The position numbers and the translations under genes are program-made. A stretch of DNA of 64,000 nucleotides, from contig DAIOVL010000001.1 in assembly GCA_036759025.1 (NCBI GenBank), positions 123,539 to 187,538 on the forward strand. The letters run 5' to 3'. The DNA is from Bacteroidales bacterium. Its GTDB lineage: Bacteria; Bacteroidota; Bacteroidia; Bacteroidales; VadinHA17. A model generated the notes under the pieces. That model was not told where the DNA came from. It did no database searches and was given only the letters and a program-made list of their open reading frames with translations. Below are positions 38,393 through 51,839 of the stretch, one piece after another (within the stretch, counting starts at the first letter, position 1; each line of letters opens with the position of its first letter).

Positions 38393-38432
38393 AGATAAAT
38401 CGGGCAGAGAACAAAACATACAAAACACAGAA

Positions 38433-38454: not shown

Positions 38455-38478
38455 TGAAAATTTGCGTATAACAACTGA

Positions 38479-38892
38479 TTACAGGTATTTTTTGTCTTCT
38501 TCCGGAATATCAAAATACTTGTTATAACGGTCAGCATCAGGACCTTTGACTTCCACTTTGTCATCACCCAGCTTGAATGTACATTTCTCACCTCCGATAT
38601 CCGAGAAATAGACATCGTACTGTTTCCCGTCCTCTTCAACTCTGATGATCCTTACCAGATGGTTGTATTTTGCGCTGTTCAGCTGCGAGTGACAGATAGG
38701 GCAGGTGTAGATGTACTCTTCACCTTCTTCGATCGAAAACGGTGGATGCGTGGTAGTAGTGTAGTTACCCAATTCGGGATCGAGAAGAACAAGGCCTCTC
38801 TGAGAACTGTTTAACTTTGACGCCGCAAGGATAATAGACGTTTTTACCTTAAGGTGTCCTTTGCACATTTTACACAGATAATCAACTGCCAT
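38479..38892 (-). CDS. Hypothetical CxxC...CxxC (zinc-ribbon-like) protein, last gene of the hydrogenase operon
   Basis: 137 aa with CKMCKGH ... CPICHSQL about 55 residues apart. Its start is 2 nt after the protease stop. I recognise no family. Confidence 0.5.
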   Translation of the reverse strand: MAVDYLCKMCKGHLKVKTSIILAASKLNSSQRGLVLLDPELGNYTTTTHPPFSIEEGEEYIYTCPICHSQLNSAKYNHLVRIIRVEEDGKQYDVYFSDIGGEKCTFKLGDDKVEVKGPDADRYNKYFDIPEEDKKYL

Positions 38893-38894
38893 GG

Positions 38895-39347
38895 TTACCT
38901 CCTGTCGTTAATATGGTTAATAATTTCATCAGAAACACTTCTTACAAGATACGAAATATTTTCACCAAATCCAATATTGGCAGGCTGAATTCCGAGAATA
39001 TAGACTTCCGCCCTGAAGAAATCGCTTATCCTGGCAAGGGAGATATTGTGAGTGTTGAATGTGAGATCTGAAACCTCACCGACTTTCAGAAGTTTAATTG
39101 TGCCCGGAGTTTCCTTCATGTCGACACAGTCGATAAGTATCAGGATGTCGGGATCAAGTGAATTTATTTTGCCGATATAATTTTCAATGCTGACTTCAAC
39201 GGAAAGGGAGGCAATATTTTCCTGAGGATGTATGTTATTGCTGATATATACTCCTGCTCCGTCGTCGCTGCGGAGAACATTTCCAATACCGACAAAAAGG
39301 ATCTTTTTGGAGGTGAGGCTGAGGAGATTTTTAAGTTCAGGAATCAT
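38895..39347 (-). CDS. Hydrogenase maturation endopeptidase (HycI/HybD family)
   Basis: ILFVGIGNVLRSDDGAGVYI ... LILIDCVD ... THNISL motifs (the Asp/Asp/His metal-site pattern). Confidence 0.85.
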   Translation of the reverse strand: MIPELKNLLSLTSKKILFVGIGNVLRSDDGAGVYISNNIHPQENIASLSVEVSIENYIGKINSLDPDILILIDCVDMKETPGTIKLLKVGEVSDLTFNTHNISLARISDFFRAEVYILGIQPANIGFGENISYLVRSVSDEIINHINDRR

Positions 39348-39352
39348 CCTGA

Positions 39353-39961
39353 TCAGAGAAATTTGACAAGGACAAGGCGCAGGCAGTTAGGGCACAGGAT
39401 GTTGAACATGTCCTTCCTTTTCAACCCGTCTTTCACATCAACTTCAGTATCGCTGTCTTCGGCAAGTTTAAGACTGTCGTTGAGAACAATCAGATTAAGG
39501 ACCGATGAGAAGGCTTTTGGGCCAAGTTTACGGTGGAGGAATTCAATGTGTTCCCTGGTGGTTATAATGGCACCACAGTTTTTACAGATAAGAAGTTCTT
39601 TTTCCTGGTATTCCACAACCCTTGATCTGTCAGTGTCGGCAATGTCGAAAATTTTATCCGAAAGCTTCACACCTTTACCTGTTATGCAATGGTCCTGACA
39701 CTGACCGCAGAAAATACATTTTCCGTAATCCCTGCGCATGATACGCACACGTTTTTCAGTATCGTCGGTAAATGTTATGGCAAGTGGAGGACATACATTT
39801 GCACATGTCTCACACCCCACGCAATTATCGTCATCAACCACTGGTTTACCCCTGAAGTTCTCAAATGGGACGTGGGCAACGGCCGGGAATCTGGTGGTAT
39901 AGGCCGGAGTCAGAAGCGATATAACTGCTTCCTTAAGCTCTCTTATCTTAGGATATCTCAT
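39353..39961 (-). CDS. NuoI/HycF/MbhN-like 2x[4Fe-4S] subunit with a C-terminal CxxC...CxxC extension
   Basis: CVGCETCANVCP and CIFCGQCQDHC, followed by an extra region of about 80 aa containing CKNCG ... CPNC. Confidence 0.8.
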   Translation of the reverse strand: MRYPKIRELKEAVISLLTPAYTTRFPAVAHVPFENFRGKPVVDDDNCVGCETCANVCPPLAITFTDDTEKRVRIMRRDYGKCIFCGQCQDHCITGKGVKLSDKIFDIADTDRSRVVEYQEKELLICKNCGAIITTREHIEFLHRKLGPKAFSSVLNLIVLNDSLKLAEDSDTEVDVKDGLKRKDMFNILCPNCLRLVLVKFL

Positions 39962-40275
39962 TTTTCCACATCTTTATAATCATCCTTTACGCTTTTGTCG
40001 CTCATCTTCACACCAAAATGATAGGTGCCCCTTATCAGGGCATGTGCTGCTACGGTAGAGCTGAAGAAAAGCAGAGGTACAGCAATCAGCGCCTTGATCC
40101 CGGCTTCGGTGAATCCGAAATGAATGAGCACACCAGCCAGGATGCTGCAGCAACCGAGAGTGACACATTTCGTGGCAGCCTGCAGTCTGTTATAGACATC
40201 AGGCAGTCTCAGCAGACCTATACAACCGAAAAGATTGAACAGGATACCAATGCTTATCACTATTAATGCGATCAT
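39958..40275 (-). CDS. Mrp/Mnh antiporter subunit G-like (MbhC-like)
   Basis: 105 aa, three TM segments, pattern GLLRLPDVYNRLQAATK typical of MnhG. Confidence 0.8.
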   Translation of the reverse strand: MIALIVISIGILFNLFGCIGLLRLPDVYNRLQAATKCVTLGCCSILAGVLIHFGFTEAGIKALIAVPLLFFSSTVAAHALIRGTYHFGVKMSDKSVKDDYKDVEK

Positions 40276-40276
40276 A

Positions 40277-40543
40277 TTATTCGTTTAATTTTTTACCGCT
40301 CAGATATTTCGCAAGGGTCAGCGTGCCAATGAAACTGAGAATTATCCAGGCAATGCCGATGTCGAGAATGAAACTCTTGCCGGTGTCGATTGAGATTATT
40401 GCACATACACCCACAACCAGTATCCCGAAAATATCTATTGCCACCATCCTGTCGGGAATGGTAGGGCCCCTGATAATCCTGTACAGACACAACCCGCTCA
40501 GGGCAATCTGGACATAAAGCAGTATTTCAAGCCAGGTATTCAT
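40277..40543 (-). CDS. Mrp/Mnh antiporter subunit F-like (MbhB-like)
   Basis: 88 aa, three TM segments, pattern RIIRGPTIPDRMVAID typical of MnhF. Confidence 0.8.
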   Translation of the reverse strand: MNTWLEILLYVQIALSGLCLYRIIRGPTIPDRMVAIDIFGILVVGVCAIISIDTGKSFILDIGIAWIILSFIGTLTLAKYLSGKKLNE

Positions 40544-41025
40544 TCCACGATCTTTTTTATGTATTTTTCAAATCTCCCCATAATCATCGAAGTATAAACA
40601 TCAGGATCAGCGGAACGTATATAGATCCAGTGAACATAGAAATCATCTCCTATGATGTCGACGGTAAGTGTCCCGGGAGTCATCGTAATTGAATTTGCCA
40701 GAAGTGTCTTTGCAAATTCCGATTTCAGGCTTGTTCTTACTTTCACAATACCAGGTTTTATTGGCATCGCCGGACTAAGGACCCTGTAGGCTACATCGAA
40801 GTTTGCCCTGATACATGCCCAGATAAAGACCACCAGGTATACAAGGCCCCAGAACCATCGCCGGGGCTGAAGAAATTTCTTAACACCCGTAAAATAAAAC
40901 CTGGCAAAAATAAGTGTGCAAACGAGCGAAGCAGCCGATCCCACTATAATGTTGGCAAAAGAGACATCAAAGGTTATAGCCAGCCAGAAGATCAGACCAA
41001 GAATGAAAAATGCCACGTATCTCAT
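40540..41025 (-). CDS. Mrp/Mnh antiporter subunit E-like (MbhA-like)
   Basis: 161 aa with two N-terminal TMs and a soluble domain (LANSITMTPGTLTVDI), the MnhE pattern. Confidence 0.75.
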   Translation of the reverse strand: MRYVAFFILGLIFWLAITFDVSFANIIVGSAASLVCTLIFARFYFTGVKKFLQPRRWFWGLVYLVVFIWACIRANFDVAYRVLSPAMPIKPGIVKVRTSLKSEFAKTLLANSITMTPGTLTVDIIGDDFYVHWIYIRSADPDVYTSMIMGRFEKYIKKIVE

Positions 41026-41026
41026 A

Positions 41027-42568
41027 TCACATTCCTAAAATTGGTGAAGTATATAACTGAGGATCAATGAGTACATTTACAGCCGGTGTCAATACCACAT
41101 CTCTTATCTGTGGTATCGCAACAAGACTCAGCAGAATACAGAACAATGCCATTATTACCATGCTCAGGACCATAGGAAAAGGAACCTCACGTATATTGTT
41201 CCCCGTTTTTGCTGCTTCCCTGTTATAAAAAGCATACCTCTGGAATTTCAGGAAAGAGGCCAGCGTGATTATGCTTACCAGCACGGCTATGACTGCAAGC
41301 AGATAGAATTTTGCCATAATAGCGGCGATGATGATTATCAGCTTACTGAAAAATCCGTTGAAGGGAGGAATGCCCGATATCGACATGGAAGCAACAAGAG
41401 AGCTTGAATATGTTGCAGGCATAAGGCCTGCCAGTCCTCCCATCTCCTTGAGATCCCTGGTGCCGGTCCTGTATTCAATGGCTCCTGCATTAAGGAAAAG
41501 AAGACTCTTAAAGGCTGCGTGGTTGATCAGATGGAAAAGGCCTCCTGCAATAGCCAGTGCAGCAACTTCAGGTTTTATACCTTTTGAAAGGAGTATCATA
41601 CCCATTCCTGCCGACATTACAACATAACCCATCTGGCTGATACTGTGATAGGCAAGAAGTCTCTTTATATCCCACTGCCCGATCGCAAGGAAAACGCCGA
41701 ACACCATTGAAAGAGCTCCAAGTGTTGTTATCAGAACAGCTGTTTCGTTACTGATAGTGAACATGTTGAAGAAGAGCCTGATGAGTACATAAATACCAAC
41801 AGCCTTGATCAATACCCCCGACAACATTGCAGAAATGGGAGAGGGGGCTGATGAGTGTGCATCAGGGAGCCAGGCATGGAAAGGTATAACTGCCGCCTTG
41901 AGGCCAAAACCGCAGAGAAGAAGCATCTGAACCAGAAGATATATCGGCTTTCCGGTTTCACTTCCCATAACCGACCTGATATCGGCAATATTAAGCGTTT
42001 TGGTACGCCAGTAGATAAACCCGATCCCGAAAAGAATAATAAGAGATGCCATTCCTCCGAGTATCTGGTATTTAAAAGTAGCTTCAAGCTCTGTCCTTCC
42101 CACTCCAAAGGCAACAAGTGCATAAGAGGATATGGCTGCTATTTCAAGAAATACGAAGATGTTAAAAATATCTCCGCTGAGAACCACTCCGTTCATGCCT
42201 GCCACCATAAGGCAGAAAAGAGCATAGTAGTTGTTCTCTGATCTGTACCGGCTGATATATGTAAAGGAATATATTACAGACAACAGACCTACAATGTTTA
42301 TTATGCAAAGAACGATAGCACTCAGACCATCGGCAACCAGGTAAATGCCGACCGGTATACCGTTAATATTATCCCAACCGCCTACTCTGTAAACAGCTTC
42401 CTTATTTCCGGTTCCGGCCATCAGCACCAGCGTTGCTGCCACAAGAAACAGTAAGCTCAGTGTAGCGATGTACTTGTTAAGATCCCTGACGAATTTTCCC
42501 AGGATCATTATCAGGAAGCCCCCTGCAAGGGGAACAGCCACCATTAAGGGTATCAGCGGATTCATCAT
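41027..42568 (-). CDS. MrpD/NuoN-type antiporter-like subunit
   Basis: 513 aa, about 14 TM segments. Conserved proton-pump family motifs are WLPDAHSSAPSPISAMLSGVLIK and HLINHAAFKSLLF. Confidence 0.85.
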   Translation of the reverse strand: MMNPLIPLMVAVPLAGGFLIMILGKFVRDLNKYIATLSLLFLVAATLVLMAGTGNKEAVYRVGGWDNINGIPVGIYLVADGLSAIVLCIINIVGLLSVIYSFTYISRYRSENNYYALFCLMVAGMNGVVLSGDIFNIFVFLEIAAISSYALVAFGVGRTELEATFKYQILGGMASLIILFGIGFIYWRTKTLNIADIRSVMGSETGKPIYLLVQMLLLCGFGLKAAVIPFHAWLPDAHSSAPSPISAMLSGVLIKAVGIYVLIRLFFNMFTISNETAVLITTLGALSMVFGVFLAIGQWDIKRLLAYHSISQMGYVVMSAGMGMILLSKGIKPEVAALAIAGGLFHLINHAAFKSLLFLNAGAIEYRTGTRDLKEMGGLAGLMPATYSSSLVASMSISGIPPFNGFFSKLIIIIAAIMAKFYLLAVIAVLVSIITLASFLKFQRYAFYNREAAKTGNNIREVPFPMVLSMVIMALFCILLSLVAIPQIRDVVLTPAVNVLIDPQLYTSPILGM

Positions 42569-42907
42569 TTATCCTCTTAAGTTCTTTATCTCCCTAATAT
42601 CGAGTGTTTTGTACTTTCTGTATATCCTGATGATCACAGACATCAGCATTGCGGTTGTTGCCAGCCCGATGACGATTGCCGTCAGCACCATCGCCTGAGG
42701 TAAGGGATCCACATAGATCGTATCGGGTGCTGCCGGGTCAATAATCGGAGCGGACCCTCCTTCAACATATCCGATCATGGCAAGGAACAGGAAAACACTG
42801 AATTCCATTATCGACAGTGATATGACTATCTTTACCAGATTCCTCCTGGTGATGATGCCATATAGCCCGACAAGGAATAGTATGAAGCAGAGCAGGTATA
42901 CCGTCAT
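42569..42907 (-). CDS. MrpC/NuoK-like subunit (MbhG-like)
   Basis: 112 aa, three TMs, RRNLVKIVISLSIMEFSVFLF pattern. Confidence 0.8.
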   Translation of the reverse strand: MTVYLLCFILFLVGLYGIITRRNLVKIVISLSIMEFSVFLFLAMIGYVEGGSAPIIDPAAPDTIYVDPLPQAMVLTAIVIGLATTAMLMSVIIRIYRKYKTLDIREIKNLRG

Positions 42908-43341
42908 TTTGTTATCTCCTCTTTAAAAATTATTAGTGCAAGGAATATGGTTAGTATCGAAGCTGCGACCTCTATCCCGATGAATATGTTGTATAATGGT
43001 ATCACGCCGGCGCTAATTAGTTCTCCCACCCTTCCTGCAGGAAGCCAGTTGCTGAAGAAAACACGGGAGCCTGTGATAAGACCTGCCAGAGCTATTAACA
43101 GAGCTGTAAAAATTGCCAGGTTCTCGGTTATCGTCGTTCCAGTCTCTTCCCTCGTAAGCTTCATGAAATCACTTCCATAAGCCAGTGTCAGAAGTATGAA
43201 CGAGCCTGCGATTATCACACCTCCGGCAAAGCCGCCTCCCGGCGTCAGATGACCATGCAGCACCACATATATACCGTAAAGGAATACTATTCCGGCTATC
43301 AGCTGGGTAGTCTTCTTCACTATCAGAGTCATGCCTTTCAT
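42904..43341 (-). CDS. MrpB/MnhB-like subunit (MbhF-like)
   Basis: [15 protein letters not shown] hallmark of the MnhB domain; 145 aa. Confidence 0.8.
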
Positions 43342-43865
43342 TTCTTTCCTTTTAATCTTAATATCGTTATAACACCCAGAACTGCAGTTACAAGTACTGT
43401 TGCCTCACCCAGTGTGTCATAGCCTCTGAAGTCAAATATTACACCTGTTACAAGGTTTGCGCTTCCGGTCTTTTCAGATGCTCCTTCAATATAATGTTCA
43501 GCCATCCTGAGAGAGCCCTTCCCGAACTCATCAAGAGATCCTGATGCCATATTCAGAAAGAAAAAGATCACCGCTATGATCACCACTGCCGTGGAAATAT
43601 TAACGTAATCCCTCATATCGGGTTTGGAAAATGGTTCCCGCCTGGTGCTGTCGAGAACCACGGCGACCATTATCACCAGGGTTATTGTTTCAACCACAAT
43701 CTGGACTATGGCCAGATCAGGAGCCCGGAGCAGGAGGAAACAGATCACAAGTCCGTAACCAACTATACCACAGGCTATCACAGCTGACAACAAATCTTTG
43801 GCATGAATTGCAAAGATCGCTCCGAGGATCATTAAAACAAGTATTACCGAAATAGCCGCTTCCAT
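43338..43865 (-). CDS. MrpA C-terminal-like membrane subunit (MbhD/MbhE-like, DUF4040 type)
   Basis: 175 aa with the pattern [15 protein letters not shown] and C-terminal [19 protein letters not shown], typical of the MnhB-related N-terminal segment. Confidence 0.7.
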
Positions 43866-43876
43866 TTTTTAGCTTA

Positions 43877-45730
43877 TTAGATCATTATCAACAGAAGTAT
43901 AGCAAGGCCGGCAAGCACCCAGATAATATATCCCGACAATATACCGTTGTGCCCCAGACTTAATTTATGGCTGAACCAGAGTACAGCCTGTCTTGAGAGA
44001 TCATAAATGTCGAACCATTTCTCGTTTGCCCATCTGTACATAACCGAAAGAAACCTGAACTCCCCGAATGTTTTATAAAACTCAGGCGTCGGATAGGCGG
44101 TCTGATCATGGAATTTCTCACCTCCTATGAAGCTATCGGAAGTGCGCAATTTTTTTATACCTGTTGCCAGGTAAATTAAAATGCCGGCGAGGATCGACAC
44201 AATTACCAGCAGTGATACCAATCCTGAGCTCCAGTAGCCAGTAAAAGAGAAGGTCCCGGTAACAGGCATCAGGAGGAGTGGTACTACAAGTTTAGTGGCA
44301 AATACCCCAAAACCTACACACATCAGGGCCAGCAATGAAAGAGGAATCCACATTAAGAAAGGTACTTCCCTTACTTTTTCAAATTCGCTGCGTCTTCTTC
44401 CGAGGAAAGCACCTCCTATGAATTTGATGAAGCTTGCCAGTGTGAGAGCTGATCCCAGCACTGCAAGTCCGAGCCATATCACCCAAAGTTTGTTTGCCAG
44501 CCCTGCCCCGGAACCGAAATCAATGATTGCCTGGTAAATCATCCATTTAGATGCAAACCCGTTCAGCGGTGGTATACCCGAAATTGACATCGCGAAAATG
44601 AGCGCTGCCGCAAAAGTGACTGGCATAGCACGAGACAGACCGCCGAGATCATCTATTTTATTCTTGCCGGTCCTGTATTCAATTGCCCCTGCCGAGAGAA
44701 AGAGACCACTTTTGTACAGGGCGTGGTTTACCATATGGAATAGTCCCGCGGCCACACCAATCACTGACCCCAGACTCATTCCGAGAATCATATACCCGAC
44801 CTGGGAAACTGCATGATAGCCAAGCAGTTTTTTGTAGTCGTGCTGGATGAGGGCCATCATCACTGCAGTGATTATTGTCGAAACACCAAGAATCAGAAGA
44901 AGTAATGTAAGCCATTCTCCTGTTATGAACATCCCGTTAAGTATCCTTGCAAGAAAATAGATACCCAGCAGTTTATCGAGGGATGCAGGGAGATATGCTG
45001 AAGATACTGCCGGGGCATTCATAGCGTAATCGGGAACCCATGTATGGAAGGGGAAGGCTCCAGCTTTAGTAAAACTGCCAGCTAGCAAGGCCAGAAAAGC
45101 CACAGTTGTAACAGGGCTTCCTGTTGATATCTGTATTTCGCTCATATTGAGGGTCCCGGTTATCCTCCAGAGTATTGCAATACCTATTATCATTATGCTG
45201 TCGGAAGCTCCGATAAGTATCAGACTCTTTTTTGCAGTAGCGGAACTCTCTTCGTCTTTGCCCTCTATCAGCTTGTAAAGCGTCAGGCCCAGTATTCCCC
45301 AGAAGGTAAGGAAAAGAAGTAGGTTGTCAGCTACGGCTGCCCCATATGAGCATCCAAGCGTAAGAAGAAACCATGAGTAAAAATTTTTGATACTTCTGCC
45401 CTTGAGATAAATAAGGGAATATAAAAGTATCAGTACCGAGAACAGACTGATAAAAAAGAGTATCAGTGTACTGAGGTTATCGGTTCTTAATGAAAGATAT
45501 TTACCCGCATTCCATAAATCGGGAACAAACCGTTGTGATCCTGTAGTGTAAAGTCCTGCCGTAAGTATGCCGGCAGCCACTGCCACAACCAGGGCTGTGA
45601 TCCCCTTGATTGTCCGCGCCCTGTCTGGAATTGCGAACAACAGCAATCCTGCAGCCAGCGTAATAATTATCGCATATTCAGTATTTGCCATTGCGGCATT
45701 GGCCGATATCAGGTTTGAAAGCTCGTTCAT
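43877..45730 (-). CDS. NuoL/MrpA/HyfB-type antiporter-like subunit (MbhH-like)
   Basis: 617 aa polytopic protein with WVPDYAMNAPAVSSAYLPASLDK and HMVNHALYKSGLFL motifs. Confidence 0.85.
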   Translation of the reverse strand: MNELSNLISANAAMANTEYAIIITLAAGLLLFAIPDRARTIKGITALVVAVAAGILTAGLYTTGSQRFVPDLWNAGKYLSLRTDNLSTLILFFISLFSVLILLYSLIYLKGRSIKNFYSWFLLTLGCSYGAAVADNLLLFLTFWGILGLTLYKLIEGKDEESSATAKKSLILIGASDSIMIIGIAILWRITGTLNMSEIQISTGSPVTTVAFLALLAGSFTKAGAFPFHTWVPDYAMNAPAVSSAYLPASLDKLLGIYFLARILNGMFITGEWLTLLLLILGVSTIITAVMMALIQHDYKKLLGYHAVSQVGYMILGMSLGSVIGVAAGLFHMVNHALYKSGLFLSAGAIEYRTGKNKIDDLGGLSRAMPVTFAAALIFAMSISGIPPLNGFASKWMIYQAIIDFGSGAGLANKLWVIWLGLAVLGSALTLASFIKFIGGAFLGRRRSEFEKVREVPFLMWIPLSLLALMCVGFGVFATKLVVPLLLMPVTGTFSFTGYWSSGLVSLLVIVSILAGILIYLATGIKKLRTSDSFIGGEKFHDQTAYPTPEFYKTFGEFRFLSVMYRWANEKWFDIYDLSRQAVLWFSHKLSLGHNGILSGYIIWVLAGLAILLLIMI

Positions 45731-46929
45731 TTCAGATCATTTTTAATCCTGAGTTCCGAAGTGCGGTCAGATGATAATCCTATCAGTTCCCTGGCGTTGT
45801 ATAATTTCCTGCCCGACACTGAATCGTATACCGCTGCGAGACGTTCAGTACAGCAGTAACACGGGTCGACGGCAGCCAGAGAAATGGTTGCATCGGAGAT
45901 GGTCTGGCCGATACACGATTTTTTGAATGTCGCTATATTGGTATAACTAGGAGCCCTGATCTTGTGACGGAGGGGTGAATTTGAACCGTCGGAAAAGACA
46001 CAATGGAATACTTCTCCCCGGGGAGCTTCAGCCCTGCCGGTGCCGATACCTTCAGGTATCTCTTTGACTTTCACCAGGATATCCCCTTCTTTTTCTTTTT
46101 TGAGCCCTTCCAGACATTGTTCTATGATGGAAATTGACTCATACATTTCAAGAAGTCTTACTTCTGCTTTCGCAAACACATCACCTTCTTCAGCAGTGAT
46201 CACCTTCCAGTTCACCAGGGGATAGGCAGCATATGGATCGTCTTTTCTGACATCTATGGCAACGCCTGACGCCCTTGCTGTAGGACCTACTGCAGCATAA
46301 TCTAAGATGTCCTGCCTGGTCAGTACGCCCACTCCCTTTGTTCTTGCATGGATAACAGGGTCGTCCATTACGGCTCCTGTCAGAAGGTCATTTTTCTTTT
46401 TAAATTCGTCAAGTATCTTTTTTACAGGTTCTATCTTGTTATTTTCAATATCCCTTCTCACGCCTCCCACCCTGAACATGGCATAGCTGTTCCTGTTTCC
46501 GGTTATCATTTCGAACAGGTCGAGTATCGGTTCCCTGTATTTCCATGCCCACATAAAAACCGTATTGTAACCCAGGAAATGACCTGCCAGGCCGACCCAC
46601 AGCAGGTGACTGTGAATGCGTTCCAGCTCACCGATGATGCTTCTGATGTACTTTGTCCTGTCAGTAATCTCAACAGCCGCAATTTCTTCCACAGCGTTGG
46701 CAAAGGCAAAAGGATGTGAGGTTGAACATATTCCGCATATCCTTTCTACCAGAAAAAACACCTGGTCGTATGTTTTCGACTCAGACAGTTTCTCAATGCC
46801 ACGGTGGTTGTACCCGGTTTCCCATTTGATGTCTTTAACAATTTCACCGTCACAGTAGAGTTTAAAGAGCTCAGGCTCTTCCTGGAGCGGATGATAGGGA
46901 CCTATTGGTATGAGGAATTTCTTGCTCAT
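45727..46929 (-). CDS. Group 4 [NiFe]-hydrogenase large subunit (NuoD/MbhL/HycE-like)
   Basis: N-terminal ligand motif RICGICSTSH and C-terminal DPCYCCTER, followed by a tail of about 37 aa. Start at MSKKFLIPIGPYHP (46929); the ORF extension to 47043 overlaps the upstream gene. Confidence 0.9.
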   Translation of the reverse strand: MSKKFLIPIGPYHPLQEEPELFKLYCDGEIVKDIKWETGYNHRGIEKLSESKTYDQVFFLVERICGICSTSHPFAFANAVEEIAAVEITDRTKYIRSIIGELERIHSHLLWVGLAGHFLGYNTVFMWAWKYREPILDLFEMITGNRNSYAMFRVGGVRRDIENNKIEPVKKILDEFKKKNDLLTGAVMDDPVIHARTKGVGVLTRQDILDYAAVGPTARASGVAIDVRKDDPYAAYPLVNWKVITAEEGDVFAKAEVRLLEMYESISIIEQCLEGLKKEKEGDILVKVKEIPEGIGTGRAEAPRGEVFHCVFSDGSNSPLRHKIRAPSYTNIATFKKSCIGQTISDATISLAAVDPCYCCTERLAAVYDSVSGRKLYNARELIGLSSDRTSELRIKNDLK

Positions 46930-46936
46930 GGATTTT

Positions 46937-47374
46937 CTATTTGAACTCTTTTCTGTAAGGGTAAACGCCTTCTGCCCAGTTGCCCTCCGAAATAAGCTTT
47001 TCAAGATTAGGATGATTGATAAAATCAATACCCAGTATCTCATGTATCTCCCTTTCTATCCAGTTTGAAGCGTTAAACAGGTTGGAAAGGGATTCAATGG
47101 AGGGTTTTTCAGGGTTCAGAATAACATGAATGTTGAGAATCAGTCCTGTGCTGTCGAAACTGAAGTGGTAGTGTATTTCAAAGCCTCTCCTGGTGTGAAG
47201 TCCTGAGGCAATAATGAACCTGAAGCCTTCATCCTTGTAAAGATATTCCGCTACTTCGGTAATATTCGCGGGATCGATCGTTGCCGTGCATCTTTTGTAA
47301 CTTCTTGTTTCAGTTTCGATGACACCGGGGCCGAACTTTTCTTTTAGCTTCTTCAGTATTAATTCAGATTCCAT
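46937..47374 (-). CDS. NuoC/MbhK-like (30 kDa subunit family) hydrogenase subunit
   Basis: 145 aa with the ERE(I/V)xDxxGI-type motif (NWIEREIHEILGIDF), characteristic of NuoC/HycE N-domain proteins. Confidence 0.8.
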   Translation of the reverse strand: MESELILKKLKEKFGPGVIETETRSYKRCTATIDPANITEVAEYLYKDEGFRFIIASGLHTRRGFEIHYHFSFDSTGLILNIHVILNPEKPSIESLSNLFNASNWIEREIHEILGIDFINHPNLEKLISEGNWAEGVYPYRKEFK

Positions 47375-47420
47375 TTAACAGTATATCACGTCATTACAAT
47401 ATAATTATCATCCCTTCATA

Positions 47421-47837
47421 TCAGGGAAGGCTCTTAACCAGCTTAACTATGCCTGCTAAAATAGCTTCGGGTTTTGGAGGACAACCGGGTATATATGCAT
47501 CCACCGGGATGATCTTGTCAACCGGTCCGGCAAAGGTGTTGCCTTCTGCAAAAATCCCTCCTGTGCATCCGCATGCTCCTATGGCGACCACTAATATAGG
47601 TTTTGGAGCCTGTTCGTATAATTCCAGCAGCCTGTCCTTGTCCCTGCGGTTTATTGAGCCGTTAACAAGAAGAACATCTGCATGTCTGATGCTCCCGACG
47701 AGAAGGATGCCGAATCTTTCGAGATCGAAGCGGGGAGTCAGACAGTCGAGAATTTCAATATCGCAGTTATTGCAGGATGCTCCTCCGAAGTGGAACACCC
47801 ATAATGATTTTTTGAAGCAGTAACTTTTAAAGCCCAC
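47421..47837 (-). CDS. Group 4 [NiFe]-hydrogenase small subunit (NuoB/MbhJ-like)
   Basis: Proximal-cluster cysteines GGASCNNCDIE ... GACGCTGG ... IPGCPP. GTG 47837 is chosen because the ATG at 47903 would overlap the NuoH-like gene by 55 nt. Confidence 0.8.
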   Translation of the reverse strand: MGFKSYCFKKSLWVFHFGGASCNNCDIEILDCLTPRFDLERFGILLVGSIRHADVLLVNGSINRRDKDRLLELYEQAPKPILVVAIGACGCTGGIFAEGNTFAGPVDKIIPVDAYIPGCPPKPEAILAGIVKLVKSLP

Positions 47838-47848
47838 GTCTTTCTGTA

Positions 47849-48781
47849 TTAATAACCGAAATATGCAAGAACAATTGCGATCACGGCAATAAGATTCATC
47901 CATATCATAAAGAAGCTCACTGCCTGTTTTATTTTAAGTCGCGGATTTGTATTCCTTATAAGTGTAAGAAGCAGTACCACTCCCGCAAGTTTCAATACAG
48001 CCCATAATATGTTTATGCCGTTCAGGTTGAAGCCCTTTAGAAGCAGACCTGTAATAAACGCGGGAAGGATCAGTAACATGATGTATTTTGTAAGTTTTAT
48101 CAGGGCATAGGGAACGCCTGAATATTCAATAAAAGCACCCGAGTTGATTTCTGTTTCTGCTTCAGCCATGTCGAATGGAACAAGTCCCAGCTTGGCCTGG
48201 ATGCAGAAAATGGCAACAATAAAAAGCAGAACCCCTGAAATACTTCCGATAAAGGGTGAAGAATTCTGTTGTATGCTTATTACAGAATACAGGTCGAAGT
48301 TCTGGGACGATTTCATAATAACTCCTGCAATTACAAGGAGGAAGGTCATTTCGTAGCTGATGATAAGCTTCATCTCTCTTGATCCTCCCACTGAGGCAAG
48401 AGGATTTCCGGATGCAAGTGAACCTATCACGTATGAAAATGAGGGTATAGTAAGCAGGTAGAATATCACCAGGAGGTCACCCCTGAAACCTGAGGTAATG
48501 TTGAACAGTGGTAAAAGGATGAATATGGCAGCCGTAGTGGCGCCGAAAAGTGCAAAAACCGGAGCAGCAAGAAATATAAAAGGTGATCCCTGTTTTGGTA
48601 GGATTGTTTCTTTTACCAGCAACAGCTTAAAGAAATCATAAAAAGGCTGAAGCAGGGGAGGCCCTTTTCTGAATTGCACCCTGGCAGTTATCTTCCTGTC
48701 GAACCATGACAGGAAACCCCCGGCGACGGCTGCGAATAAAAGACCCGGAAAAACAAGAAAATAGAACAAATAGACTGCCAT
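47849..48781 (-). CDS. NuoH/HycD/MbhM-like membrane subunit
   Basis: 310 aa, about 8 TM segments. The N-terminal WFDRKITARVQFRKGP motif is typical of the NuoH family. Confidence 0.85.
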   Translation of the reverse strand: MAVYLFYFLVFPGLLFAAVAGGFLSWFDRKITARVQFRKGPPLLQPFYDFFKLLLVKETILPKQGSPFIFLAAPVFALFGATTAAIFILLPLFNITSGFRGDLLVIFYLLTIPSFSYVIGSLASGNPLASVGGSREMKLIISYEMTFLLVIAGVIMKSSQNFDLYSVISIQQNSSPFIGSISGVLLFIVAIFCIQAKLGLVPFDMAEAETEINSGAFIEYSGVPYALIKLTKYIMLLILPAFITGLLLKGFNLNGINILWAVLKLAGVVLLLTLIRNTNPRLKIKQAVSFFMIWMNLIAVIAIVLAYFGY

Positions 48782-48792
48782 GCTTGCTTATA

Positions 48793-49284
48793 TTAATCCG
48801 TTTTGTACAGAAGATCTTTTACCAGAACTTTGTTGTTCAGTCTGTAAATATTATCCCCGGGCGACTCATGTGTGTCGGTAATAGTCACAGTGCCTGGAGG
48901 ACATGCTGCGGCGAATTTTTCCATCTGCTCAGTGCTTGCCAGGTCGTAAAGAATGTCACGGTTCCTGTGATGTTTGAAAAAATCCGTCATCATTGTTCCG
49001 AAAGGACATATCGTAACACATGATTTGCACGATACACACAGGTTAGTGTGGCGGTTGATGATTCCGTCGCTGTCTTTTTCAAGGGCATCCGCCGGACAGG
49101 CAGCTATGCACGGAGCATCCTCGCATTTCCTGCAGGTAAACCTGAAGACCGCAAGTTCCCTGATTGTCTTCAGACCATTTTCGTTGCGCTTTGGATAGAA
49201 CAATGCTTCAGGCAGTTCAATTGACGGATCGTCAGCCATTATGCTCCTCAGTTTCATCAGATCGATAAGTATGCTCTTACTCAT
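48793..49284 (-). CDS. HycB/DmsB-like 4Fe-4S ferredoxin subunit
   Basis: CRKCEDAPCIAACP and CVSCKSCVTICPFG motifs. Confidence 0.75.
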   Translation of the reverse strand: MSKSILIDLMKLRSIMADDPSIELPEALFYPKRNENGLKTIRELAVFRFTCRKCEDAPCIAACPADALEKDSDGIINRHTNLCVSCKSCVTICPFGTMMTDFFKHHRNRDILYDLASTEQMEKFAAACPPGTVTITDTHESPGDNIYRLNNKVLVKDLLYKTD

Positions 49285-49325
49285 AATATCCTTGTGACAG
49301 TTTCGCTAAACCCAAATCTGAATTT

Positions 49326-49781
49326 TTACAGCATCAGCTGGTTCATCAGCTGAAACCTTGTGTCACTCAATCTTTGAGATAATGTGACTGCAATTTTTGA
49401 CATTGTTCTAAACCCGAAGCTGCAGTCTTTGTCAATCTCTTCCCTTAGCTTTACAGCGTCGATCGCCAATAATTTTGCAGGAGTTACGGCCATTACCCAT
49501 GCCGTTGCTATAAAGGGTGTGAAAAGTGCCGACCACGAAAAAAACTGACCTTCTTCAATAGTCCCGAGATGTATCCTTTTCTCTTTTGCCAGACTTATTC
49601 CCAGGGAAAGAGTCCCCTCAAGAAGTACTGCTACTTCACTGAGCTTGTCATATTGTTCAAAAAGGACTTCTTTTACAGCGATCTCTTTTATGCAGCTTAT
49701 CGCAGTGAATATTTCAAGCTGCTGGTCGGTGTAATCGTCGAAAAACCTGATTTTCTTAAGATCATCAACTGTAATTTCCAT
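49326..49781 (-). CDS. Stand-alone cyclic-nucleotide-binding-like (Crp effector-domain) protein, no DNA-binding domain
   Basis: 151 aa with the beta-roll pattern FFDDYTDQQLEIF...VLFEQYDKLSEVAVLLEGTLSL...LGTIEEGQFFSWSALF...AWVMAVTPAKLLAIDAVKL. It ends right after the hinge helix, with no HTH. Confidence 0.6.
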   Translation of the reverse strand: MEITVDDLKKIRFFDDYTDQQLEIFTAISCIKEIAVKEVLFEQYDKLSEVAVLLEGTLSLGISLAKEKRIHLGTIEEGQFFSWSALFTPFIATAWVMAVTPAKLLAIDAVKLREEIDKDCSFGFRTMSKIAVTLSQRLSDTRFQLMNQLML

Positions 49782-49803
49782 GACTCAATTTCTTAAAAAT
49801 TAA

Positions 49804-50628
49804 CTAACTCCAAATATCAGGTGTATCCTTCAGTTCGTTGTACGTAAATACGGGACCGTCCTTGCAGACAAAAAATTTCCCCATCATGCAGTGACCGCAT
49901 TTACCCAGTCCGCAGGACATATTCTTTTCCATCGACAGGTAAATTTTATTTTCAGGGTAGCCCATTTCAAGAAGTCTTATTGTGGTGAATTTCATCATAA
50001 CAGGAGGACCGCAGACTACTGCCACTGATTTATCTATATCAATGTGTATCCTGTTGAGCAGGCTTGTCACCACACCAACGGATTCATTCCATTCGTCGTC
50101 AGGCTTGTCGACAGTTCTGAATGTTTCAAATTTATCGATCTTGTTAAGGCGTGCAAAAAGCGGTTTATATACACAGTCGGAGGGTGTTTTGGATCCGTAG
50201 CACAGAGTCACTTTTTCAAGCTTGTCAACAACATGCTCGAGAGCGTAAAGCAACGACCTTATAGGTGCCAGTCCGCAACCTCCTCCAAGTATGAGCACCT
50301 CCTTCCCGAAAAATTTTTCCACCGGGTAGCCTCTTCCGTACGGACCTCTTATCCCCATCAGGTCACCGGGTTTCATGTTGTGCATGTATTCAGTGACATA
50401 ACCTGTTTTCATGACAGTTACCTCAAGCCTGTCGTGAACAAGCGGTGATGAAGATGGTGTGAAGGGAGCTTCCCCGATCCCGTCGACGGCAAGTTCTATG
50501 AATTGTCCGGTATCGAAGAAGAATTCCTTCTCCGGAATCAGGACGAAAGTCTTTATGAGCGGTGATTCGGTAATCACCTCTGTAAGCTCAGCCCTGAGAG
50601 CTTTGTATATGTTCACATCGGCAGGCAT
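49804..50628 (-). CDS. AsrB / sulfhydrogenase gamma (HydG)-like FAD/NAD(P)-binding [2Fe-2S] oxidoreductase subunit
   Basis: FAD motif APFTPSS, NAD(P) motif LGGGCGLAPIRSL, C-terminal [2Fe-2S] CGLGKCGHCMMGKFFVCKDGPVF. Start at MPADVNIY (50628); the ORF extends to 50667. Confidence 0.8.
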   Translation of the reverse strand: MPADVNIYKALRAELTEVITESPLIKTFVLIPEKEFFFDTGQFIELAVDGIGEAPFTPSSSPLVHDRLEVTVMKTGYVTEYMHNMKPGDLMGIRGPYGRGYPVEKFFGKEVLILGGGCGLAPIRSLLYALEHVVDKLEKVTLCYGSKTPSDCVYKPLFARLNKIDKFETFRTVDKPDDEWNESVGVVTSLLNRIHIDIDKSVAVVCGPPVMMKFTTIRLLEMGYPENKIYLSMEKNMSCGLGKCGHCMMGKFFVCKDGPVFTYNELKDTPDIWS

Positions 50629-50638
50629 ATCCGTATTT

Positions 50639-51634
50639 TCATTTAGCCAGTTCCCTGAATATTTCATTCTTGTTTATCTTCCCGATACATGCTTCTATAC
50701 ATCTCCCGCAACCTGTGCAGGCAAGGCCTGAGAATTTGGCAGGTTTCCAGACATATTTGCACATATACCTGTTCCTGAATCTTTTCGGAAGTTCGGAGAG
50801 TGAATCCTCTCCTCCGGCAACACGTTCAAACCCGGGATACTGACAGGCATCCATTTGCTTCACCTTGTGAAAACCGGGTTTGTCGATCAACAGGAAACAG
50901 GTGCAGGTAGGACAAATAGCAGTGCAGGCACCGCATGAAACGCAGCGCTGTGAATGATGGTGCCAGACCTTATCATCGGCATAGTTTACCAGATCACCGG
51001 TCATTCTGTAGTCCGGCAGGCCCTTGTTCATCCTTGTCAGTATCTCTGTGACTTCCCTGTGCCTTGTTTCAATGTAAGAGATTACATCTTTCCCGGTAAC
51101 CTGAACAGCGCTGAAATGAGTTTTTAAAAGCTGTTCGCCCCTTTCCGATAGAATCCTGAGAACAACTTCATCACCTTTCAGAACAATTGCAAGGTCGGCA
51201 ATGGAGTCAGAGTAGGGCATTACATTATAGGTAACACAATGACAGTGTTCAAGAATGTCAAAGCAATCAGAGGCTATGATATATGTATTCTCCCTTTTGT
51301 TCTTGTAATAGATATCCTCAAAGCTGCTGTCAAGATAGATTTCATCAAGAAGACGGAGAGCAGAAACATCACAGTTTGGAACACCGATTATTATCCTTTG
51401 CTTCCCGGGGAGTAAGTCGGCTGTTACATTTTCTTTTACCGGAAGAAAAAATGTCTTTAGAGGGGTCGACGGTTTAGGCTTGTTGTAAACTATCTTACCT
51501 GTATTAGCCTTGTTCACCAGTTCGTATTCAGGCAAATGTCCGTTCTCTGTGGCTGCGTATATACCGAACAGATCTGAGAGTTTTATGAGGTCTGCCTCCC
51601 AATTCTCTCTTTTAATTGAATAATAACTATTCAT
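50639..51634 (-). CDS. AsrA / sulfhydrogenase beta (HydB)-like 4Fe-4S subunit
   Basis: CVSCGACTAICPTCTCF and CTGCGRCIEACIGKIN motifs in the characteristic spacing. Start at MNSYYSIKRE (51634); the ORF extends to 51670. Confidence 0.8.
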   Translation of the reverse strand: MNSYYSIKRENWEADLIKLSDLFGIYAATENGHLPEYELVNKANTGKIVYNKPKPSTPLKTFFLPVKENVTADLLPGKQRIIIGVPNCDVSALRLLDEIYLDSSFEDIYYKNKRENTYIIASDCFDILEHCHCVTYNVMPYSDSIADLAIVLKGDEVVLRILSERGEQLLKTHFSAVQVTGKDVISYIETRHREVTEILTRMNKGLPDYRMTGDLVNYADDKVWHHHSQRCVSCGACTAICPTCTCFLLIDKPGFHKVKQMDACQYPGFERVAGGEDSLSELPKRFRNRYMCKYVWKPAKFSGLACTGCGRCIEACIGKINKNEIFRELAK

Positions 51635-51821
51635 TAATGTGAGATATACGCATATAAAAATATTAAACATATTGCATACATGTCAAGTTAAAATGCAATT
51701 ATTTTTTTCAGTAATTCAGAAGAAAAACATGTAAAAAGCAATAAAACAACTGTTTAAAAAATATTTTTTATTTGAAAATTATTTCTTTAATTTGCAGAAA
51801 GACTATTTAAAATACGATATA

Positions 51822-51839
51822 TTGTGAAAAAGTTCACAA
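51822..51839. promoter_or_regulatory. Rex operator, perfect palindrome TTGTGAA-AAAG-TTCACAA
   Basis: It matches the TTGTGAAnnnnTTCACAA Rex consensus exactly. It overlaps the rex GTG start (51824) and lies 188 nt upstream of the divergent hydrogenase operon start. Confidence 0.75.

What the first reader, a model, noticed from the sequence alone, without database searches (positions are those of the whole stretch)
38479..51670. 19-gene Mrp-linked group 4 [NiFe]-hydrogenase operon headed by a sulfhydrogenase beta/gamma (AsrA/AsrB)-like NAD(P)H module
Seen: an uninterrupted minus-strand array runs from 51634 to 38479. Junctions range from -4 to +46 nt, with five ATGA-type 4-nt overlaps, and the array ends in a GC hairpin plus T-tract at 38433-38454. 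Gene order is:
- AsrA/HydB-like 4Fe-4S protein
- AsrB/HydG-like FAD/NAD(P)/[2Fe-2S] protein
- cNMP-domain protein
- HycB-like ferredoxin
- NuoH-, NuoB-, NuoC- and NuoD-like subunits (the large subunit has intact RICGICSTSH and DPCYCCTER ligand motifs)
- NuoL/MrpA-like and MbhD/E-like subunits
- MrpB, C, D, E, F and G
- NuoI-like subunit, HycI-like protease and a Zn-ribbon protein

Established: NuoBCDHI plus Mrp subunits is the Mbh/Mrp-linked respiratory group 4 hydrogenase design, normally fed by ferredoxin or by formate/CO modules. The AsrAB-like pair is the diaphorase module of cytosolic group 3b sulfhydrogenases and of anaerobic sulfite reductase.

Inference: this chimera could wire NAD(P)(H), or a sulfur acceptor, to an ion-translocating hydrogenase. 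I do not recognise it as a characterised enzyme type.
Basis: partly seen in the sequence, partly recalled or inferred. Interest (0 to 1): 0.78.

Follow-up and report, generated by a model that had tools for sequence, protein, structure and literature searches.

The report
Hun-type NAD(P)H-linked membrane hydrogenase operon
This is an intact operon for a membrane-bound, ion-pumping nickel-iron hydrogenase carrying an extra NAD(P)H-type electron module; the design was already named "Hun" in 2021 and is common in Bacteroidales, but nobody has tested what it does.

Summary
Nineteen co-directional minus-strand genes run from 51634 to 38479, with five 4-nt overlaps and a strong terminator hairpin at 38432-38455.

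The arrangement is not new. Glass et al. (bioRxiv 10.1101/536078) described the same 16-gene "Hun" complex: HunAB AsrAB-like, and HunG with CGIC...CYCC ligand motifs. They found it in Atribacteria, Omnitrophica, Elusimicrobia, Bacteroidetes and Kosmotoga.

Findings here:
- More than 565 species-level genomes encode HunG relatives.
- In 61 of 61 Bacteroidota loci with enough flank, and in Kosmotoga, hunAB sits directly upstream of the core.
- HunB and HunA are closest to the gamma and beta subunits of Pyrococcus NADPH-dependent sulfhydrogenase I.
- HunG is closest to MbhL.
- A divergent rex gene carries a perfect Rex operator at 51822-51839.
- Most relatives, and Kosmotoga, also have a Rex-type box just before hunA. 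That box is degenerate in this window.

Best reading: a Rex-controlled, ion-coupled NAD(P)H:H+ oxidoreductase. The published model proposes ferredoxin as donor instead. No biochemistry exists for either.

Verdict: a new member of a known, uncharacterised kind; moderate interest.

The parts
50639..51634 (-). hunA: AsrA/HydB-like polyferredoxin (331 aa)
   Evidence: Pfam Fer4_22. Best solved relative is P. furiosus sulfhydrogenase I beta, 9nez_B, E 4.5e-31. NCBIfam hits to ShyB, AsrA and HydB all fall below their cut-offs.
49804..50628 (-). hunB: AsrB/HydG/PyrK-like FAD, NAD(P) and [2Fe-2S] protein (274 aa from ATG 50628; the longest ORF starts at 50667)
   Evidence: Pfam FAD_binding_6, NAD_binding_1 and DHODB_Fe-S_bind. 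Best solved relative is sulfhydrogenase I gamma, 9nez_C, E 7.4e-47. The GGGxGxxP, CGPP and CxxxxCxxC...C motifs are at least 90% conserved (mostly invariant) in 66 homologues.
49326..49781 (-). Stand-alone cNMP-binding-like domain protein (151 aa, no DNA-binding domain), inserted between hunB and hunC
   Evidence: Pfam cNMP_binding, E 2.5e-10. Present in 22 of 61 related loci and absent from Kosmotoga.
48793..49284 (-). hunC: HycB/CooF-like ferredoxin with two [4Fe-4S] motifs
   Evidence: Pfam Fer4_11. PDB hits are HycB-type subunits, including 7z0s_B. Cysteine motifs read from the translation.
47849..48781 (-). hunD: NuoH/MbhM-like membrane subunit
   Evidence: Pfam NADHdh. Best PDB hit is MbhM, 6cfw_M, E 1.1e-35.
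47421..47837 (-). hunE: NuoB-like small subunit (GTG start at 47837)
   Evidence: Pfam Oxidored_q6. Start inferred from the 137-aa relatives and the sequence.
46937..47374 (-). hunF: NuoC-like subunit
   Evidence: Pfam Complex1_30kDa.
45727..46929 (-). hunG: [NiFe] large subunit with RICGICSTSH and DPCYCCTER, plus a 37-aa C-terminal extension
   Evidence: Pfam Complex1_49kDa and NiFeSe_Hases. Best PDB hit is MbhL, 6cfw_L, E 1.9e-83. DPCYCCTER is invariant in 81 loci.
43877..45730 (-). hunH: MrpA/NuoL-like antiporter subunit
   Evidence: Pfam Proton_antipo_M; NCBIfam.
43338..43865 (-). hunI: fused MbhD/MbhE-like subunit
   Evidence: Pfam MbhD and MbhE.
42904..43341 (-). hunJ: MrpB/MnhB-like subunit
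   Evidence: Pfam MnhB.
42569..42907 (-). hunK: MrpC/NuoK-like subunit
   Evidence: Pfam Oxidored_q2.
41027..42568 (-). hunL: MrpD-like antiporter subunit
   Evidence: Pfam Proton_antipo_M.
40540..41025 (-). hunM: MrpE-like subunit
   Evidence: Pfam MNHE.
40277..40543 (-). hunN: MrpF-like subunit
   Evidence: Pfam MrpF_PhaF.
39958..40275 (-). hunO: MrpG-like subunit
   Evidence: Pfam PhaG_MnhG_YufB.
39353..39961 (-). hunP: NuoI/HycF-like 2x[4Fe-4S] subunit with a Cys-rich C-terminal tail
   Evidence: Pfam Fer4_7. Best PDB hit is HycF, 7z0s_F, E 1.4e-15.
38895..39347 (-). hycI-like large-subunit C-terminal endopeptidase
   Evidence: Pfam HycI. NCBIfam TIGR00072 scores above its cut-off.
38479..38892 (-). 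Conserved 137-aa protein with two CxxC pairs, function unknown
   Evidence: No Pfam or NCBIfam hit. 530 homologues, none carrying a functional family name (nearly all hypothetical protein or unnamed; named sources are Bacteroidales MAGs). Follows hycI in most related loci.
38432..38455 (-). Intrinsic terminator hairpin followed by a T-tract
51637..51655 (-). Degenerate remnant of the hunA-proximal Rex-type box. It reads ATGCGTATATCTCACAT here, against ATGTGAAnnnnnTCACAT in relatives.
51822..51839 (.). Perfect Rex operator TTGTGAAAAAGTTCACAA, overlapping the GTG start of rex
   Evidence: It is the only match in the window. The core TGTGA-N6-TCACA is expected 0.05 times by chance. The same position is occupied in relatives.
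51824..52507 (+). rex: redox-sensing (NADH/NAD+) repressor, divergent from hunA and first gene of rex-hypFCDEAB
   Evidence: NCBIfam Rex equivalog, 212 bits against a cut-off of 138; Pfam.
52504..58067 (+). hypF, hypC, hypD, hypE, hypA and hypB [NiFe] maturation genes. ORF limits are as listed by the tool; some true starts probably lie a little downstream.
   Evidence: Pfam; same synteny in relatives.

Best explanation
What it is: an intact Hun-type operon of an uncultured Bacteroidales bacterium. It comprises hunA-P, a cNMP-like insert, hycI and a small Cys protein. It encodes a group 4, Mrp-linked [NiFe]-hydrogenase.

Shown:
- The catalytic core (HunD-G and HunP) is MBH/FHL-like, with all four Ni-Fe cysteine ligands.
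- The membrane arm is a complete Mrp set (HunH-O).
- HunA and HunB are homologues of the beta and gamma subunits of NADPH-dependent sulfhydrogenase I.
- HunB keeps the FAD, NAD(P) and [2Fe-2S] motifs.
- The neighbouring rex gene has a perfect Rex operator.

Inferred electron path:
1. NAD(P)H reduces the HunB flavin.
2. Electrons pass through the HunB [2Fe-2S] cluster.
3. They continue through the HunA clusters, HunC, HunP and HunE to the Ni-Fe site in HunG.
4. HunAB thereby takes the place that FdhF holds in formate hydrogenlyase.

Inferred energetics:
- NADH to H2 is uphill by about 94 mV, or +18 kJ/mol, under standard conditions.
- The Mrp arm would therefore let ions flow in to push H2 evolution when NADH is high. 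Rex derepression fits this direction.
- The reaction could conserve energy only when H2 is very low.
- Run in reverse, H2 would reduce NAD(P)+ while ions are pumped out.
For: Operon anatomy.

Identity with the published Hun complex: the same 16 genes and the CGIC...CYCC motifs.

Conserved linkage of hunAB to the core:
- 61 of 61 Bacteroidota loci have hunAB directly upstream.
- Kosmotoga loci are collinear, with 4-nt overlaps across hunA/B/C/D.

Homology:
- HunB to sulfhydrogenase I gamma, E 7.4e-47; HunA to beta, E 4.5e-31.
- HunB cofactor and NAD(P) motifs are at least 90% conserved (mostly invariant) in 66 homologues.
- HunG is nearest to MbhL and HycE, not MbsL.
- HunP is nearest to HycF, and HunC is HycB-like.

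Rex control:
- Rex passes its NCBIfam equivalog cut-off.
- The window has one perfect operator.
- A Rex-type core lies 10-45 nt before hunA in 38 of 62 related loci.
- 76 of the 79 core matches in 1.34 Mb of loci fall at the two conserved positions.
- Kosmotoga has a 1-mismatch box at the hunA start.

Expression: in K. olearia grown on pyruvate, where only ferredoxin is reduced, Hun genes give 30-204 RPKM. The two [FeFe] hydrogenases give about 480-2600 RPKM.
Against: - No biochemical data exist for any Hun complex.
- The only published model proposes ferredoxin as donor.
- In this window and in its closest relative (L004), the hunA-proximal box is degenerate. Direct Rex control of hun is therefore not shown here.
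- Rex regulons also include ferredoxin-dependent hydrogenases (own knowledge), so Rex control does not prove NADH use.
- NADH versus NADPH preference cannot be read from the sequence.
- HunA and HunB fall below every NCBIfam equivalog cut-off.
- The K. olearia expression argument is weakened because Kole_0567, in the hunH region, is annotated as a pseudogene.
- Two antiporter-like subunits seem generous for a 94-mV couple.
Confidence: 0.55

Rival explanations
1. Ferredoxin-driven Hun (the model of Glass et al.). Reduced ferredoxin donates to HunABC. Electrons reduce protons at HunG, and the exergonic reaction pumps H+/Na+ as in MBH. HunB's flavin site would be vestigial or serve only in electron transfer.
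For: - This is the published proposal.
- All characterised Mrp-Mbh relatives use low-potential donors.
- A downhill reaction fits a full Mrp arm with two antiporter-like subunits.
- The genome also has a HydABC-type [FeFe] hydrogenase that could handle NADH.
Against: - MBH takes ferredoxin directly at its NuoI-like subunit and needs no AsrAB-like module.
- The NAD(P)-binding GGGxGxxP and CGPP motifs of HunB are at least 90% conserved across 66 homologues, which argues for a used nucleotide site.
- The closest characterised homologue, sulfhydrogenase I gamma, is an NADP(H) subunit.
- Rex-type operators sit at hunA in two phyla.
- Hun expression is low in pyruvate-grown K. olearia, where ferredoxin is the only reduced carrier.
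Confidence: 0.27
2. HunAB reduces a sulfur compound (polysulfide, S0 or sulfite) with electrons from H2. Hun would then be an ion-pumping H2:sulfur oxidoreductase.
For: HunAB are homologues of the AsrAB and sulfhydrogenase beta/gamma subunits. The closest relative comes from a sulfidic-spring metagenome by its isolate name (L004).
Against: - There is no AsrC or siroheme subunit in the operon.
- HunA and HunB score far below the AsrA/AsrB cut-offs.
- The family is spread over peat, lake, digester and groundwater MAGs, going by their isolate names.
- Nothing in the operon resembles the MBS sulfane-reducing site, and HunG keeps its Ni ligands.
Confidence: 0.05
3. HunAB, with or without the cNMP-like protein, is a separate soluble oxidoreductase. 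It is merely co-transcribed with an ordinary ferredoxin-dependent Mrp-Mbh.
For: In this window, gaps of 22 and 41 nt flank the cNMP-like gene between hunB and hunC.
Against: - Gene order is invariant in 61 of 61 loci, and hunB abuts hunC wherever the insert is absent.
- Kosmotoga has 4-nt overlaps from hunA through hunD.
- An Mrp-less relative keeps hunABC joined to the catalytic core.
- No terminator-like site lies in these gaps.
Confidence: 0.08
4. The complex is a non-hydrogenase relative (Mbx/Mbs/Ehr-like) that does not make or use H2.
For: The unusual CYCC L2 motif differs from other group 4 enzymes.
Against: - All four Cys ligands are present and DPCYCCTER is invariant.
- There is a C-terminal extension and a hycI gene in the operon.
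- A hypFCDEAB cluster is adjacent.
- MbhL is a much better match than MbsL.
Confidence: 0.03

Closest known systems
Hun complex (HunA-P) of Atribacteria, Kosmotoga, Bacteroidetes and others; Glass et al., bioRxiv 10.1101/536078. A bioinformatic description only.
   Same: The same 16 genes in the same order. HunAB are AsrAB-like and there is no AsrC. HunG has the CGIC...CYCC motifs. An Mrp-like module is present. Bacteroidetes MAGs were already listed among the carriers.
   Different: - This operon has an extra cNMP-like gene between hunB and hunC.
- It has a trailing hycI and a small Cys protein.
- A divergent rex gene carries a Rex operator.
- The published model assumes a ferredoxin donor. 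The evidence here leans towards NAD(P)H.
Pyrococcus furiosus membrane-bound hydrogenase MBH (group 4d; PDB 6CFW)
   Same: It provides the closest solved relatives of HunG and HunD. It is also an Mrp-linked membrane arm with a NuoB/C/D/H/I-like core.
   Different: MBH has one antiporter-like subunit, a different gene order (as in L092) and no HunABC input module. Ferredoxin docks directly on MbhN.
E. coli formate hydrogenlyase (group 4a; PDB 7Z0S) and Thermococcus Fdh/CODH-Mrp-Mbh (group 4b)
   Same: The same logic applies: a soluble dehydrogenase module feeds a HycB-like ferredoxin and then a HycF-like subunit. HunC and HunP match HycB and HycF.
   Different: The input module is not a molybdopterin formate dehydrogenase or a CODH. 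It is an FNR/PyrK-type flavoprotein plus a polyferredoxin.
Cytosolic group 3b sulfhydrogenase I/II of Pyrococcus (PDB 9NEZ), beta and gamma subunits
   Same: HunA and HunB are their closest solved homologues, with the same cofactor motifs.
   Different: There is no group 3 large or small subunit. Here the module is joined to a membrane-bound group 4 enzyme.
Respiratory complex I
   Same: An NADH-type input module is attached to a NuoBCDHI core and antiporter-like subunits.
   Different: The input module is unrelated to NuoEFG. The acceptor is H+ at a Ni-Fe site rather than quinone.

Membership tests
Hun complex (Glass et al. 2021) | Sixteen genes hunA-P in a conserved order | tested here: met
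   The order A-B-(cNMP)-C...P is collinear with Kosmotoga and with 80 Bacteroidota loci.
Hun complex (Glass et al. 2021) | HunAB AsrAB-like, with no AsrC | tested here: met
   No siroheme or NIR_SIR domain gene lies in the operon.
Hun complex (Glass et al. 2021) | HunG metal-site motifs CGIC (L1) and CYCC (L2) | tested here: met
   RICGICSTSH and DPCYCCTER. DPCYCCTER is invariant in 81 loci.
Hun complex (Glass et al. 2021) | HydDB class 4g, but distant from other 4g sequences | not testable with these tools
   No HydDB classifier was available. The representative search shows only Kosmotoga-like clusters at about 60% identity, then at most 47%.
Group 4 [NiFe]-hydrogenase | NuoD-like large subunit with four Cys ligands, and a NuoB-like small subunit | tested here: met
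Group 4 [NiFe]-hydrogenase | C-terminal extension, a cognate endopeptidase and Hyp maturation genes | tested here: met
   A 37-aa tail follows DPCYCCTER. hycI is present, and so is hypFCDEAB.
Group 4 [NiFe]-hydrogenase | H2 evolution or uptake activity coupled to ion translocation | not testable with these tools
   Needs biochemistry.
Group 4d MBH (Pyrococcus type) | mbhA-N gene order, a single antiporter-like subunit and no separate input module | tested here: not met
   There are two antiporter-like subunits, plus HunABC, and the order differs. Compare L092.
Group 4a/4b formate- or CO-linked hydrogenlyase | A formate dehydrogenase or CODH catalytic subunit in the cluster | tested here: not met
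   No molybdopterin or CooS domain occurs in the 19 genes.
Group 3b sulfhydrogenase | Group 3 alpha and delta subunits accompanying beta and gamma | tested here: not met
   Only beta/gamma homologues are present. HunG matches ShyA/HydA only weakly and only at its N-terminus.
Anaerobic sulfite reductase AsrABC | An AsrC siroheme subunit, and A/B scores above the TIGR02910/02911 cut-offs | tested here: not met
   Scores were 116.7 against 323 bits and 195.3 against 288.6 bits. There is no AsrC.
Mbx/Mbs/Ehr non-hydrogenase relatives | Loss of the Ni-Fe cysteine ligands | tested here: not met
   The ligands are intact. MbsL is a much weaker match than MbhL.
Rex regulon | A Rex repressor gene and a TTGTGAAnnnnTTCACAA operator at the regulated promoter | tested here: inconclusive
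   For rex-hyp the test is met: a perfect operator lies at 51822-51839. For hun itself the proximal box is degenerate here. It is present in 38 of 62 relatives and in Kosmotoga.

The most novel reading that the evidence does not exclude
Hun is a so far unrecognised type of coupling site: an NAD(P)H:H+ oxidoreductase tied to an ion gradient. It arose when a group 4 hydrogenase acquired an FNR/PyrK-type NAD(P)H module, independently of the NuoEFG module of complex I.

Under Rex control, it would let fermenting Bacteroidales, Kosmotoga and Atribacteria dispose of NADH electrons as H2 at the expense of the ion gradient. In reverse, it would conserve energy from H2-dependent NAD(P)+ reduction.
Probability: 0.45. 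Interest if true: 0.7.

Novelty: new member of a known kind. Interest (0 to 1): 0.42.

Why it matters
Re-oxidising NADH to H2 is a thermodynamic bottleneck for fermenters and syntrophs. The known solutions are electron-confurcating [FeFe] hydrogenases and Rnf plus a ferredoxin-dependent hydrogenase.

A membrane [NiFe] enzyme that links NAD(P)H directly to H2 through an ion gradient would be a third solution. It would also be a second, independent instance of a complex-I-like machine acquiring an NADH input module.

The family is large. More than 565 species-level genomes have HunG relatives, mostly environmental Bacteroidales from peat, sediments and digesters. Its function therefore bears on H2 budgets in anoxic habitats.

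Cultured carriers exist (Labilibacter sediminis, Kosmotoga), so the question can be tested directly.

Tried and rejected
- Internal terminators or promoters that might split hunAB from the core: only chance-level weak hits inside genes.
- tRNA and Rfam scans of the window: nothing found.
- A solved structure of a Hun-type complex: none exists. Subunits match MBH, FHL and sulfhydrogenase I separately.
- AlphaFold2 on the 137-aa Cys protein with 38 homologues: mean pLDDT 46. The model was unusable, so no fold search was run.
By eye, the cAMP-contact residues Glu72 and Arg82 appear replaced. I hold this loosely.
- Literature searches for an NAD(P)H-linked Mrp-Mbh, for a paper on the sulfhydrogenase I structure, and for Atribacter laminatus or Moorella data on such a complex: nothing beyond Glass et al. 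and Matheus Carnevali et al..
- The idea that HunAB accompanies all near relatives of HunG: rejected. L091 and L092, at 42-44% identity, lack it.
- Contexts for the 59%-identity NuoC-D fusion cluster (P0122): contigs too short to tell.

Full report
**Observation**

The ORF list and translations show 19 consecutive minus-strand genes between 51634 and 38479.
- Comparison with relatives fixes four starts: hunA at ATG 51634, hunB at ATG 50628 (274 aa), hunE at GTG 47837 and hunG at ATG 46929.
- With these starts the junctions run from -4 to +46 nt, and there are five 4-nt overlaps.
- The array ends 24 nt before a 10-pair hairpin with a T-tract at 38455-38432. This is the strongest terminator-like site in the region.
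- The remaining terminator-like hits are weak, lie inside genes and occur at chance frequency (11 found, 11.9 expected).

- Fer4_22 (AsrA-like)
- FAD_binding_6 / NAD_binding_1 / DHODB_Fe-S_bind (AsrB-like)
- cNMP_binding
- Fer4_11
- NuoH-, NuoB-, NuoC- and NuoD-like subunits
- two Proton_antipo_M subunits
- MbhD/E, MnhB, NuoK-like, MrpE, MrpF and MrpG
- a NuoI-like ferredoxin
- HycI
- a 137-aa protein with no family

The large subunit carries RICGICSTSH and DPCYCCTER, followed by a 37-aa tail.

**Surroundings**

- Divergent from hunA is a gene that passes the NCBIfam equivalog cut-off for the redox-sensing repressor Rex (212 bits against 138).
- It is followed in the same direction by hypF, C, D, E, A and B.
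- Further on lies a HydABC-type [FeFe] hydrogenase.
- A transketolase gene lies downstream of the terminator.
- Base composition is even across the window.
- The window shares 85.7% nucleotide identity over 17.3 kb with a Bacteroidales MAG, ZodW_Metabat.7.
- One of its proteins is identical to a protein of another Bacteroidales MAG.

**Prior description**

Full-text searches found that this design is already published.
- Glass et al. (bioRxiv 10.1101/536078) describe a 16-subunit "Hun" complex.
  - HunAB resemble AsrAB, and AsrC is absent.
  - HunC is a ferredoxin-like subunit, and HunD-G and HunP form the hydrogenase core.
  - HunI-O are Mrp-like.
  - HunG has the distinctive CGIC...CYCC motifs.
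  - HydDB places HunG in group 4g, but distant from other 4g sequences.
  - They report the operon in Atribacteria, Omnitrophica, Elusimicrobia, Bacteroidetes MAGs and Kosmotoga.
  - They propose ferredoxin as the donor.
- Matheus Carnevali et al. (PMC6349859) had noted asrA/asrB and cooF next to Mrp and group 4 hydrogenase genes in Saganbacteria.

The window's operon meets every sequence-level criterion of Hun.

**Conservation**

- A scan of one genome per species found more than 565 genomes encoding a HunG relative. The 80 best (78-96% identity) are all Bacteroidota, among them the isolate Labilibacter sediminis CG51.
- Mapping the window's proteins onto these loci shows hunA and hunB directly upstream of hunC-P in 61 of 61 loci with enough flank.
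- DPCYCCTER is invariant in 81 loci.
- The cNMP-like gene is present in 22 of 61 loci.
- hycI follows hunP, and the 137-aa protein follows hycI in most loci.
- A search of 50%-identity cluster representatives shows the nearest outside cluster is Kosmotoga, at 60% identity and also with CYCC.
- Kosmotoga loci are collinear for all 16 genes plus hycI and hypF. Per-subunit identity is 33-59%, and 4-nt overlaps join hunA, B, C and D.
- The next clusters, at no more than 47% identity, are ordinary Mbh-like enzymes. Two with long contigs lack hunAB.
- One relative at 44% identity (L090) has hunA-B-C-D-E-F-G-P and no Mrp genes at all.

The HunABC module is therefore tied to this branch of group 4 and not to Mrp as such.

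**What the parts resemble**

- Among solved structures, HunB is closest to the gamma subunit and HunA to the beta subunit of P. furiosus sulfhydrogenase I. The matches are 9NEZ, E 7.4e-47 and 4.5e-31. Own knowledge: that is the module through which the enzyme exchanges electrons with NADP(H).
- The flavin-site segment, GGGxGxxP, CGPP and the [2Fe-2S] cysteines of HunB are at least 90% conserved (mostly invariant) in 66 homologues.
- HunG is closest to MbhL (1.9e-83) and HycE (2.4e-76), and far from MbsL (5e-49).
- HunD is closest to MbhM, HunP to HycF, and HunC to HycB-type ferredoxins.
- The architecture therefore follows formate hydrogenlyase logic. A PyrK/FNR-type flavoprotein plus a polyferredoxin stands where FdhF would be, on a full Mrp membrane arm.
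- HunA and HunB fall below all NCBIfam equivalog cut-offs. They are relatives of AsrAB, HydBG and ShyBC, not members of those families.

**Regulation**

- The window holds exactly one match to the Rex operator, a perfect TTGTGAAAAAGTTCACAA at 51822-51839. It overlaps the GTG start of rex. The core is expected 0.05 times by chance.
- Relatives keep this box and usually have a second one, ATGTGAAnnnnnTCACAT, 10-45 nt before the hunA start. The exact core is present in 38 of 62 loci.
- Of the 79 core matches in 1.34 Mb of locus sequence, 76 lie at these two positions.
- Kosmotoga has no adjacent rex, yet it has a 1-mismatch box at the hunA start.
- In this window and its nearest relative the proximal box has decayed.
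- Direct Rex control is therefore well supported for the family. Here it is shown only for rex-hyp.

**Mechanism**

Shown:
- the cofactor motifs
- the homologies
- the conserved linkage
- the Rex sites

Inferred:
- NAD(P)H reduces the HunB flavin.
- Electrons then pass through the HunB [2Fe-2S] cluster, HunA, HunC, HunP and HunE to the Ni-Fe site in HunG.
- The standard potentials are -320 mV for NAD+/NADH and -414 mV for H+/H2.
- H2 evolution from NADH therefore costs about 18 kJ/mol.
- It becomes favourable only below roughly 10^-3 atm H2.
- The Mrp arm would use the ion gradient to drive NADH-dependent H2 evolution when NADH accumulates. Rex derepression fits this direction.
- In the opposite direction, the arm would pump ions during H2-dependent NAD(P)+ reduction.

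One external data point: in K. olearia grown on pyruvate, where only ferredoxin is reduced, Hun genes give 30-204 RPKM. The two [FeFe] hydrogenases give about 480-2600 RPKM (PMC5674127 Table S3). This fits a non-ferredoxin role. It is weakened because the hunH region is annotated as a pseudogene in that strain.

The main rival is the published ferredoxin model, and it cannot be excluded. A sulfur-reducing role, a merely co-transcribed soluble enzyme and a non-hydrogenase complex are each poorly supported.

**Novelty and verdict**

- The operon is a new member of a known, named but biochemically untested kind.
- This analysis adds four things:
  - the size and strictness of the family in Bacteroidota
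  - the explicit homology to a solved NADP(H) module
  - the Rex operators in two phyla
  - an Mrp-less variant
Its impression of novelty is overstated.
- Interest is moderate. The open biochemical question is real and can be tested in cultured carriers.

Noticed in passing
window 51822-51839: A perfect Rex operator overlaps the GTG start codon of rex itself. The same arrangement is conserved in dozens of Bacteroidota genomes. It suggests autoregulation of a rex-hypFCDEAB operon.
   Followed up: yes
window 49326-49781: A stand-alone cNMP-binding-like domain protein with no DNA-binding domain is inserted between hunB and hunC. It occurs in 22 of 61 related loci. By eye, the cAMP-contact Glu and Arg of CRP look replaced, so its ligand and role are unknown.
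   Followed up: partly
window 38479-38892: A 137-aa protein with two invariant CxxC pairs closes the operon. It has 530 homologues, none carrying a functional family name (nearly all hypothetical protein or unnamed; named sources are Bacteroidales MAGs), and no Pfam or NCBIfam family. The AlphaFold2 model was too poor to use (pLDDT 46).
   Followed up: partly
L090 4808-11011: An Mrp-less relative has hunA-B-C-D-E-F-G-P with no antiporter-like genes nearby. Its L2 motif is DPCTGCAER. The contig also carries PorV and Por_Secre_tail genes. Its HunB homologue shows no NAD_binding_1 hit on record.
   Followed up: partly
window 60403-63844: A HydABC-type [FeFe] hydrogenase (NuoE-like, NuoF-like and a HydA with a small-subunit domain) lies next to the hyp genes, as it does in Bacteroidetes ADurb.Bin145. 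The organism therefore has two candidate NADH-linked hydrogenases side by side.
   Followed up: no
Kosmotoga olearia Kole_0560-0574 (PMC5674127 Table S3): In the type strain the hunH region (Kole_0567) is annotated as a pseudogene, and RNA-seq operon calls split the cluster in two. Other Kosmotoga contigs (L084-L086) have an intact operon.
   Followed up: partly
window 17254-21588: Two CCG-domain (Hdr-like) proteins flank a pyridine-nucleotide-disulphide oxidoreductase-like gene. This may be another redox module, unrelated to the finding.
   Followed up: no
window 38479-51634 (gene starts): Almost no gene in the array has a Shine-Dalgarno-like sequence upstream. This fits a Bacteroidota origin.
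   Followed up: no
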